Assembly (NCBI RefSeq): GCF_030013595.1
Contig: NZ_CP122768.1
Strand: one strand, 5' to 3'
Source of the DNA: Escherichia coli
GTDB taxonomy: Bacteria > Pseudomonadota > Gammaproteobacteria > Enterobacterales > Enterobacteriaceae
Length of the DNA stretch: 64,000 nucleotides
Below, one piece after another: positions 6,001 to 9,000 of this stretch. The position numbers are program-made. Numbering within the stretch: position 1 is the stretch's first letter; every line of letters begins with the position of its first letter.

Positions 6001-9000
6001 TTCTACCTGTTGGTGTTAATTGCCGCCCTGGGCGGGATCCTGCTGGCGAATGCCAACCATCTGGCGTCTTTGTTCCTCGGTATCGAACTGATCTCTTTGC
6101 CGCTGTTTGGCCTGGTCGGTTACGCTTTCCGCCAGAAACGTTCGCTGGAAGCCAGTATCAAATACACCATTCTCTCTGCCGCAGCGTCTTCTTTCCTGCT
6201 GTTCGGTATGGCGCTGGTGTATGCGCAGTCTGGCGACCTGTCGTTTGTCGCGCTGGGTAAAAACCTCGGCGGCGGTATGCTCAACGAGCCGCTGTTGCTG
6301 GCAGGTTTCGGCCTGATGATTGTCGGCCTCGGCTTCAAACTCTCTCTGGTGCCGTTCCACCTGTGGACGCCAGACGTATACCAGGGCGCGCCTGCGCCGG
6401 TTTCCACTTTCCTGGCGACGGCGAGCAAAATCGCTATCTTCGGTGTGGTGATGCGTCTGTTCCTCTACGCACCGGTGGGTGACAGCGAAGCAATTCGCGT
6501 GGTGCTGGCGATTATCGCCTTTGCCTCTATCATCTTCGGTAACCTGATGGCGCTGAGCCAGACCAATATCAAACGTCTGCTCGGTTACTCATCTATCTCT
6601 CACCTCGGCTATCTGCTGGTGGCGCTGATTGCGCTGCAAACTGGCGAGATGTCGATGGAAGCGGTAGGGGTTTACCTGGCCGGTTATCTGTTCAGCAGCC
6701 TAGGCGCGTTCGGCGTGGTCAGCCTGATGTCCAGCCCGTATCGTGGCCCGGATGCTGATTCCCTGTTCTCTTACCGCGGTCTGTTCTGGCATCGTCCGAT
6801 CCTCGCGGCGGTGATGACGGTGATGATGCTGTCTCTGGCCGGTATCCCGATGACGCTGGGCTTTATCGGTAAGTTCTACGTGCTGGCGGTCGGTGTCCAG
6901 GCACACCTGTGGTGGCTGGTGGGTGCCGTGGTTGTCGGTTCGGCAATCGGCCTCTACTACTACCTGCGCGTGGCGGTGAGCCTGTATCTTCACGCCCCGG
7001 AACAACCGGGTCGCGATGCACCATCAAACTGGCAGTACAGCGCGGGTGGTATCGTGGTGCTGATCTCTGCACTGTTGGTACTGGTGCTGGGTGTATGGCC
7101 ACAACCGCTGATTAGCATTGTGCGGTTGGCAATGCCGCTGATGTAAGCTATCAGTTTGTAAGTCAGAAAGCCGCCGACATGTTCGGCGGCTTTTTTTTGG
7201 TGCCCTGACCCCATCACCCAACAATAACCGTCAGCGCATGATTCCCTTGTCGCAGCATACGTCGATACGTGCTAATCAGCTTTTCCATATCAAGCATGAT
7301 CGAAGCAAAGAGTTGCCCCTCTAACTCTTCTGAAAAAGTCACTCCCGGATAAATCTCCATTTCATTGAGTCGCTTAATGGAAAATTTTTTACGCAGCTCA
7401 CTTCGATCAAGAGCTTCCAGTCGCTCGATTGTCGCGGCTAACTCCTGATTCCAGGTCAATCCCAGGAAGCCATCTATGCCATCTTCGAGGCTGTGTTCAC
7501 CAAGCACGGCACGACTCAGCGGATCATTCTTCGCGGGATCAAAAGCAGAGGTGCCCGTCAGGCCAAAGTGTAAAAAATCCCAGCGTTTATCAATATCCAG
7601 TCGGCGTAATCCTGAAAGCGTGTCATGTATATTATCCATCAAAGGTTTTTGAGTAGACTCAAGCAGTTGGTTAATCTTTTCTGAGTCAATTTCTGCAAAA
7701 TAGCCAATCATTCCCATTTTATTTTCCTCCGTTGAATTTCATGTTTCGCATCTTAAAACAGACGAGGGAAAATAAAATGTACATGTCGCTTTTTCTGGAC
7801 CCGCCTCGAGAAATTTTTATTATTTACTGTTGTATAACAAAGTTATAACCCCATCCACTACCTGAGCCATTTTCTGATAATTCAATCTGTCTGCGGTATC
7901 ACCGGGCAAGTGGTATTGTTTATTACGATAAAAAGCGGTGTCAGTAATCATTACTGCGGGAATATCGTGTTGCCAATAATTCAGGTGGTCAGAGAAATCA
8001 ATACCGGGAATAAACCCTGGGGCATTCATAGAATAAACAGATAAATCCCGGGATGACAACAATGCCGCTTTTACCTGACGAACGGCGTTGATATCCTGCA
8101 TTCTGCCGACCACGGCAATAAAGTCTCCCCGATCGGGATAAAGCCAGGACATTGCCGGGTAAGGGTAATCCTGACTACCAGGCGCAGAGTCGTAATAGCC
8201 AATCATCTCCAGCGCTATCATTAATCTCACTGGACGCTCAAGCGAAGCTGCATGTACCGCGCTCCCCATTTCATCGCTACGAAAGAAGGGCGGTTCTTCC
8301 GACGCATAGGCGACCAGCTGCACGCCAGTTTTCGGTGCTTGCTGCTGTAACAAACGTGCCAGTTCGAGTAATCCTGCCACGCCGCTGGCGTTATCATCCG
8401 CGCCCGGCGTATAGGTCAATTGATCATTTTCATAACTACTGACAGAGTCATAGTGCGCACCAATAATAATCAGCGGTCCATCGGCAGGACCATAATCAGC
8501 AACAATGTTTTTGTAGGGGCCACCCGCAATGGGGACGTCCTGCGAGGTAACTCTGGCACCGCTACTGACAAAGACCTCTTTTATATACTCTGCGGACCTA
8601 TTCAGATTATCAATATTGTCGGCACTACGTGGATGTACAGTTTGTGTAAGATAACGAACTGTTTTTTCTAATTGCTCAGGACTTGCGTGTCGGGGCGTTG
8701 GCGGTAATGCATTGACCCAAGGTTGGTAAAAAATAATAAAAGGAAGCGATAGTAGTAATGATATAAAATAAAGAGGTGTCATTTTTTTCATATGTAAATT
8801 ATCAATAAAAGGCGTTATTTTATAATTATTTATAATGAGTTGTGAGTGTTTATTTTATTACGGTTGGTAGAGATATACAAAAAGTATTTTTTTACAGTGG
8901 GTTCGCTATTTTAAAAAGGAATTCATATGAGGAAAAAATATAATTATGTTATTTATTGGCAGATTGAATTGACAGGGGGCAGAAATCTGAGGGTAAGAAA

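What the first reader, a model, noticed from the sequence alone, without database searches (positions are those of the whole stretch)
7147..7213. nuoN and yfbM separated by only 67 bp: yfbN/yfbO/yfbP-type genes absent
The nuo operon terminator is immediately followed by convergent yfbM. From memory K-12 carries three additional small genes (yfbN, yfbO, yfbP) here. Together with the missing yfbK and the intact LysR/MFS pair this indicates a non-K-12 backbone and marks a variable-content junction.
Basis: established knowledge. Interest (0 to 1): 0.2.

Follow-up and report, generated by a model that had tools for sequence, protein, structure and literature searches.

The report
Empty nuoN–yfbM junction, K-12 islet absent
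The 67 bases between nuoN and yfbM hold only a shared transcription terminator; this is the common E. coli arrangement, and K-12 is the unusual strain because it carries a 2.6-kb low-GC insert (yfbN, yfbO, yfbP) here.

Summary
nuoN ends at 7146, convergent yfbM ends at 7214, and the 67-bp gap holds one strong hairpin followed by a run of eight T (7165-7198).

K-12 has 2,610 bp in this gap, carrying yfbP, yfbO and yfbN. A 2,561-bp segment of 39.8% GC replaces about 18 bp of the window's spacer.

- The short junction is the majority state, found in 4,214 of 5,426 complete E. coli genomes.
- Two non-coli Escherichia lineages share it, down to the spacer sequence.
- The K-12 islet occurs in about 1,015 genomes, nearly all at 99% identity or more. 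It has no mobility genes and no terminal repeats.

So the window never had these genes, and K-12's lineage gained them. yfbK is different. Its last 39 bp survive at 9073-9111, so it was deleted.

The site is variable. Other genomes carry IS200 there (101 genomes, including the window's two closest relatives), a yfbO+yfbN cassette, or a yfbN-like gene plus a 191-aa gene.

This is ordinary accessory-genome variation at an operon end. Interest is low.

The parts
5689..7146 (+). nuoN, the last gene of the NADH dehydrogenase I (nuo) operon
   Evidence: ORF. NCBIfam NF004439 NuoN equivalog, 944.9 bits over 1-485. The stretch 5600-7194, which includes this gene, is 98.1% identical to K-12.
7147..7213 (.). 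67-bp intergenic gap between the convergent genes nuoN and yfbM (the finding)
   Evidence: Sequence. ORF ends. No Rfam family comes near its gathering score.
7165..7198 (+). Intrinsic-terminator-type hairpin: A-rich leader AGAAA, stem GCCGCCGA/TCGGCGGC (7170-7177/7183-7190), 5-nt loop, T8 tail (7191-7198). Read on the minus strand, the same hairpin has an A8 leader and a weaker UUUCU tail.
   Evidence: RNA fold -25.2 kcal/mol (+ strand, z -3.96) and -25.7 kcal/mol (- strand, z -3.59). Coordinates. The stem is retained in the K-12, WL297, UID2309220013, E. whittamii and SCPM-O-B-8794 sequences (alignment A1). The simple consensus scan did not call it.
7195..7212 (.). About 18 bp of spacer (end of the T run plus GGTGCCCTGACCCC). 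This is the only window sequence with no K-12 counterpart, and it is where K-12 has its 2,561-bp islet. IS200 sits at its left edge in 101 genomes.
   Evidence: BLAST break points: window 7194 = L001 9545 and window 7213 = L001 12107. Boundary sequences. The spacer is conserved in E. whittamii and SCPM-O-B-8794. IS200 junctions.
7214..7717 (-). yfbM (DUF1877 family, function unknown)
   Evidence: Pfam PF08974 at E 1.4e-35. PDB 1ryl at E 1.3e-105. 93-99% identical to K-12 in 100-bp blocks.
7820..8791 (-). yfbL (M28 family metallopeptidase)
   Evidence: Pfam Peptidase_M28 at E 2.6e-26. Annotated as yfbL in K-12 and in HCP5S3_I2.
9073..9111 (+). 3'-terminal remnant of yfbK (encodes IELADGVTDIGQ*). 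The body of the gene is deleted.
   Evidence: Compared with the K-12 YfbK C-terminus ...IELADGVTDISQ*. Coordinates. BLAST break points: window 9051/9072 = L001 13954/15511.
9229..10404 (-). elaD (ElaD/SseL family deubiquitinase). 391 aa here against 403 aa in K-12, because of a frameshift near the 3' end.
   Evidence: NCBIfam NF008812 at 432 bits. Tail comparison and alternative reading frame. PGAP marks it 'frameshifted' in the near-identical strain.

Best explanation
The 67-bp interval is the unoccupied form of a small variable site at the end of the nuo operon. It holds one GC-rich hairpin with an A-rich leader and a T8 tail. This most likely ends nuo transcription on the + strand. Because it is nearly symmetrical, it probably also ends yfbM transcription on the - strand. 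About 18 bp of spacer then run up to the yfbM stop codon. The window carries the common and older arrangement. The lineage leading to K-12 acquired a 2.56-kb low-GC segment (yfbP, yfbO, yfbN) that replaced the spacer. It most likely arrived by homologous recombination through the conserved flanks (nuoN plus terminator on one side, yfbM on the other), not by a site-specific element. Shown: the anatomy, the break points, the base composition, the population counts and the outgroup states. Inferred: terminator activity, the direction of change (gain in K-12) and the recombination route.
For: Anatomy:
- The gap and hairpin were read directly.
- The fold is about -25 kcal/mol on both strands, z about -4.
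- The hairpin stem is retained in every state compared.

Break points:
- Window 5600-7194 = K-12 L001 7951-9545.
- Window 7213 onward = L001 12107 onward.
- K-12 therefore has an extra 2,561 bp.

Composition:
- The islet is 39.8% GC against 56% for nuo.
- GC drops from 59% to 42% at the boundary.

Population:
- The strictly contiguous junction is in 4,214 of 5,426 complete E. coli genomes.
- By name these include O157:H7, O111:H8, O121:H19 and ST131 strains.
- The K-12 islet is in 1,015 genomes, 946 of them near full length and 985 at 99% identity or more.

Outgroups:
- E. whittamii (93.9% identical to the window) and SCPM-O-B-8794 (90.0% identical, representative of a separate GTDB species) have the same short junction with a recognisably conserved spacer.

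No remnant:
- The window has no trace of yfbN, yfbO or yfbP. By contrast, the deleted yfbK left its last 39 bp.

No mobility signature:
- The islet has no terminal direct or inverted repeats and no integrase or transposase.
Against: - The direction of change is not proven. A third outgroup, Escherichia sp. MOD1-EC7003, carries a cassette at this site (a 191-aa gene and a yfbN-like gene). yfbN-type cassettes about 85% identical to K-12's occur in other E. coli. The occupied state is therefore also old within the genus, and some empty sites could come from clean replacement by an empty allele.
- The E. albertii contig ends 14 bp past yfbM and is uninformative.
- The 17-19% figure for the islet is inflated by the many K-12 laboratory derivatives in the collection.
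- The consensus terminator scan found no site in 7000-7900. I attribute this to its stem extension using up part of the T run, which leaves 4 T in the next 8 bases. That is an inference about the tool.
- No transcript-end data were available.
Confidence: 0.85

Rival explanations
1. The window's lineage once carried the yfbN/O/P islet or a related cassette and lost it by a clean deletion. On this reading the short junction is derived.
For: Cassettes with yfbN-like genes occur at the same site in a non-coli Escherichia (MOD1-EC7003) and in divergent form (about 85% identity) in other E. coli, so occupancy is old. The neighbouring gene yfbK was lost by deletion in this same lineage.
Against: The window has no remnant of the islet. 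Its 18-bp spacer is not found at either islet boundary in K-12, yet it is conserved in two other Escherichia species. Independent deletions would not regenerate the same spacer. The empty state is found in 78% of genomes, including well-known serotypes and clones from different lineages. The K-12 islet is nearly invariant among its carriers, as expected for a recent spread.
Confidence: 0.08
2. The junction is a target site for a mobile element, and the K-12 islet is the cargo of a site-specific or transposable element that recognises the terminator hairpin.
For: IS200 sits immediately after the T run in 101 genomes, at the same position and orientation in two strains whose flanks differ by about 3%. 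All insert variants begin within or just after the T run and end exactly at the yfbM stop codon.
Against: The K-12 islet encodes no integrase, transposase or recombinase. It has no terminal repeats and no target-site duplication, and it replaces the spacer instead of splitting it. The shared IS200 position could equally reflect one old insertion spread by recombination. YfbN has no match in phage genomes. Its only plasmid match near full length is in one 365-kb E. coli record, plus distant Hymenobacter homologues at about 33% identity.
Confidence: 0.05
3. The short gap is an assembly or reading artefact and does not represent a real genome arrangement.
For: None found.
Against: The same contiguous junction is present in 4,214 independently finished genomes. 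The window is 100% identical over 20 kb to two complete genomes apart from their IS200.
Confidence: 0.01

Closest known systems
Strain-specific islets of E. coli K-12 ('K-islands' in the K-12 versus O157:H7 comparison of Perna et al. 2001; recalled from memory, not checked here)
   Same: A short K-12-only segment with atypically low GC lies between conserved backbone genes and is absent from O157:H7 and most other strains.
   Different: What is in the window is the empty site, not the islet. I did not verify that yfbN/O/P is listed as a numbered K-island.
Bidirectional intrinsic terminators between convergent genes (described as widespread in E. coli by full-length RNA profiling, Ju et al. 2019; recalled from memory)
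   Same: One GC-rich hairpin lies between two convergent stop codons, flanked by an A tract on one side and a T tract on the other. It folds equally well on both strands.
   Different: The tail on the yfbM side is weak (UUUCU). Termination was not measured, and the consensus scan did not call the site.
IS200 insertions next to terminator-like hairpins
   Same: IS200/IS605-family tnpA is inserted directly after the T run of this hairpin in 101 genomes, including the window's closest relatives.
   Different: The window itself has no IS200 here. Whether the site is a recurrent target or one inherited insertion was not resolved.

Membership tests
Rho-independent (intrinsic) terminator | GC-rich stem-loop that is stable as RNA | tested here: met
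   8-bp GC-rich core stem, extendable to 13 pairs. -25.2 kcal/mol, and 0 of 200 shuffles fold as well.
Rho-independent (intrinsic) terminator | Run of U immediately 3' of the stem | tested here: met
   T8 at 7191-7198 directly follows the core stem. On the minus strand the tail is only UUUCU.
Rho-independent (intrinsic) terminator | Called by a consensus terminator scan | tested here: not met
   The scan of 7000-7900 found 0 sites. The likely reason is that the stem extends into the T run, which is my inference.
Rho-independent (intrinsic) terminator | Transcripts end there | not testable with these tools
   This needs 3'-end mapping in a strain that has the short junction.
Horizontally acquired genomic islet (applies to the K-12 yfbN/O/P segment) | Present in some strains and absent in others at the same backbone site | tested here: met
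   1,015 genomes have it and 4,214 have the empty junction.
Horizontally acquired genomic islet (applies to the K-12 yfbN/O/P segment) | Base composition unlike the flanking backbone | tested here: met
   39.8% GC against 56% for nuo. However, the yfbM-elaD side is itself low in GC, at 36-51%.
Horizontally acquired genomic islet (applies to the K-12 yfbN/O/P segment) | Mobility genes, tRNA anchor or flanking repeats | tested here: not met
   No integrase or transposase is annotated, and no terminal repeats were found.
Anti-phage defence system (K-12 islet and neighbouring genes) | Match to a known defence-system protein model | tested here: not met
   PADLOC gave 0 families for YfbP, YfbO, YfbN, YfbK, YfbM and YfbL.

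The most novel reading that the evidence does not exclude
The nuoN-yfbM terminator site may be a long-standing cassette-exchange spot in the genus Escherichia. Alternative YfbN-family modules (with YfbO and YfbP, with YfbO alone, or with a 191-aa protein that has a weak SUKH-like motif) would be swapped by flanking homology and would affect phage interactions. Preprints report that a K-12 yfbO deletion resists phage N4, and that yfbN was taken as a blocker in a retron toxin screen, with yfbO added only for its linkage to yfbN. On this reading the window's empty site would predict a different phage or retron phenotype from K-12.
Probability: 0.1. Interest if true: 0.35.

Novelty: already known. 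Interest (0 to 1): 0.08.

Why it matters
The finding matters little biologically. It is a useful strain marker. It shows that the window is not K-12, and it identifies K-12's yfbN/O/P as accessory DNA, not core E. coli DNA. That is worth remembering when K-12 phenotypes for these genes are generalised. One example is the reported phage N4 resistance of yfbO mutants. Most E. coli, including this strain, simply lack the gene. The contrast with yfbK (deleted, with a remnant left behind) shows that 'missing relative to K-12' can mean either never gained or lost.

Tried and rejected
- Consensus terminator scan of 7000-7900: no site called. I rely instead on the direct reading and the folds.
- Rfam at a permissive E-value over 6900-7900: only weak hits of the terminator-hairpin type, all far below gathering scores. 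No known RNA gene lies in the gap.
- PADLOC on YfbP, YfbO, YfbN, YfbK, YfbM and YfbL: nothing. A defence-system reading is unsupported.
- Pfam and PDB sequence searches on YfbN and YfbO: only sub-threshold UBA-like matches for YfbN and nothing for YfbO.
- Pfam on the 191-aa cassette protein: only sub-threshold SUKH/SMI1-KNR4 matches, E 0.01-0.1. This is a lead, not a result.
- AlphaFold of YfbN without an alignment: mean pLDDT 45.5, unusable, so no fold search was run.
- Repeat search across the K-12 islet boundaries: only short matches at chance level, with no target duplication and no terminal inverted repeats.
- E. albertii as an outgroup: the contig ends 14 bp after yfbM.
- Literature search for DUF1877/YfbM: swamped by an unrelated poultry abbreviation.
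- I ran no further search on the islet genes, because they are not in the window.

Full report
**What is in the window**

nuoN is the ORF 5689..7146 on the + strand. It is 485 aa and matches the NuoN equivalog model end to end at 944.9 bits. yfbM is the ORF 7214..7717 on the - strand. It is 167 aa and matches Pfam DUF1877 at E 1.4e-35 and the solved structure 1ryl, 'hypothetical protein yfbM', at E 1.3e-105.

The two genes converge, and the gap 7147..7213 is exactly 67 bp. The gap reads AGAAA-GCCGCCGA-CATGT-TCGGCGGC-TTTTTTTT (7165-7198), followed by GGTGCCCTGACCCCA up to the yfbM stop codon.

As RNA the gap folds at -25.2 kcal/mol on the + strand (z -3.96) and -25.7 kcal/mol on the - strand (z -3.59). 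This is the anatomy of an intrinsic terminator for the nuo operon. With an A-rich leader on one side and a T run on the other, it could also serve convergent yfbM, although the tail on that strand is only UUUCU.

The simple consensus scan did not call a terminator. I think its stem extension consumes part of the T run, but that is an inference. Rfam finds nothing near any gathering score.

**Comparison with K-12**

In strain MG1655p (L001) the gene order is nuoN, yfbP(-), yfbO(-), yfbN(+), yfbM(-), yfbL(-), yfbK(+), elaD(-), rbn, elaA. BLAST gives these correspondences:
- Window 5600-7194 matches L001 7951-9545 at 98.1% identity.
- Window 7213-9051 matches L001 12107-13954.
- Window 9072-10500 matches L001 15511-16928.

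K-12 therefore has 2,561 extra bases (L001 9546-12106) where the window has about 18 bp (7195-7212). The K-12 segment is 39.8% GC, against 56% for nuo. GC falls from 59% to 42% at the boundary.

The islet keeps the nuo hairpin on its left and ends exactly at the yfbM stop codon on its right. It has no terminal direct or inverted repeats and no mobility gene.

**Which state is the unusual one**

Counts among the 5,426 complete E. coli genomes:

| State of the junction | Genomes |
|---|---|
| Contiguous 211-bp junction as in the window (at least 80% in one piece) | 4,214 |
| IS200 right after the T run | 101 |
| Any match to the K-12 islet | 1,015 |
| K-12 islet near full length | 946 |
| K-12 islet at 99% identity or more | 985 |

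Many islet carriers are K-12 laboratory derivatives, so their share is inflated. Genomes with the empty junction include strains named O157:H7, O111:H8, O121:H19 and O25b:H4-ST131. From general knowledge these belong to different phylogroups.

A scan of one genome per species found four yfbM loci outside typical E. coli:
- **E. whittamii** (93.9% identical to the window) has the same short junction with a recognisably conserved spacer, GGTGCTCTGATACCA against the window's GGTGCCCTGACCCCA.
- **SCPM-O-B-8794** (90.0% identical) also has the short junction, with spacer GGCGCCCTGACACCA.
- **Escherichia sp. MOD1-EC7003** has a different cassette at the site.
- **E. albertii** is uninformative, because the contig ends 14 bp past yfbM.

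The window has no trace of yfbN, yfbO or yfbP. Taken together, the short junction is the common and older state, and the K-12 islet is a gain. I put this at about 0.85. The main caveat is that occupied states are also old in the genus.

**Other occupants of the site**

- WL297 (L003) has a yfbN-like gene plus a 191-aa gene. The insert is 1,580 bp at 36.9% GC.
- MOD1-EC7003 (L006) has the same 191-aa gene and the same right-hand boundary.
- UID2309220013 (L004) has yfbO-like and yfbN-like genes at about 85% identity to K-12, and no yfbP. The insert is 1,681 bp at 37.4% GC.

All variants start in or just after the T run and end at the yfbM stop codon. The most economical mechanism is allele replacement by homologous recombination through the conserved flanks. 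This is inferred, not shown.

**What the missing genes are**

- YfbP has weak TPR matches.
- YfbN has only sub-threshold UBA-like matches.
- YfbO matches nothing.
- None of the three matches a PADLOC defence model.
- The 191-aa protein has sub-threshold SUKH-type matches only.
- YfbN is absent from phage genomes. On plasmids it has only distant Hymenobacter relatives, plus one E. coli record.
- A single-sequence structure prediction of YfbN was unusable, at pLDDT 45.5.

Two preprints touch these genes in K-12. Deleting yfbO or yfbL gave phage N4 resistance that was reversed by complementation (10.1101/2025.09.29.679331). [quoted passage not shown] These results are leads for the islet. They say nothing directly about the window, which lacks the genes.

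yfbK is indeed missing, but for a different reason. Its last 39 bp survive at 9073-9111 and encode IELADGVTDIGQ*, against K-12's ...IELADGVTDISQ*. It was therefore deleted. In total, 2,579 of 5,426 genomes share the yfbK-less arrangement.

The window is not K-12. Over 20 kb it is 100.0% identical to two pig isolates from Winchester, UK (HCP5S3_I2 and LCP30S3_I5), apart from their IS200 at this very junction. The next best genome is 98.2% identical.

**Verdict**

This is routine accessory-genome variation next to an operon terminator, so it is already known in kind and of low interest.

Noticed in passing
window 7191-7199; L002 6548-7254: The window's two nearest complete genomes (100.0% identical over 20 kb) differ from it by an IS200/IS605-family element of about 0.7 kb, inserted directly after the terminator's T run. 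The same insertion, in the same position and orientation, is in 101 genomes. One of these is a strain whose flanks are about 3% diverged and whose TnpA allele differs.
   Followed up: partly
window 9073-9111 (remnant); 8792-9228 (yfbL-elaD interval): yfbK was lost by an internal deletion that left the last 39 bp of the gene (IELADGVTDIGQ*). About 2,579 of 5,426 E. coli genomes share the yfbK-less arrangement.
   Followed up: yes
window 8713-9051: The 5' end of yfbL and the region upstream of it are only 64-72% identical to K-12, while the rest of the yfbM and yfbL coding sequence is 93-99% identical. In the collection, identity over this stretch splits into two groups, 90-95% and 60-80%, which suggests two deep haplotypes linked to the presence or absence of yfbK.
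   Followed up: partly
window 9229-10404 (-): elaD is 391 aa here against 403 aa in K-12. A frameshift near the 3' end moves the K-12-like tail (…HSQPKNRASGKRVS*) into another frame. PGAP annotates the gene as a frameshifted pseudogene in the near-identical strain.
   Followed up: partly
L003 9001-9549 (WL297) against window 6650-7202: The 3' end of nuoN and the terminator in WL297 are only 93.5% identical to the window, against 97.8% for K-12. Its cassette matches that of the non-coli Escherichia sp. MOD1-EC7003. This suggests the whole segment was imported from another Escherichia species.
   Followed up: no
window 7500-10500: The whole yfbM-yfbL-elaD block is low in GC (36-51%) compared with nuo (55-59%) and rbn (about 50%). 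The junction therefore sits at the edge of a larger compositionally atypical and variable region, not inside otherwise uniform backbone.
   Followed up: no
L009 44020-46261 (roughly window 43300-45550): An intact LysR-family regulator and a divergent MFS transporter lie between glpQ and inaA in the near-identical strain's annotation. I did not compare it with K-12.
   Followed up: no
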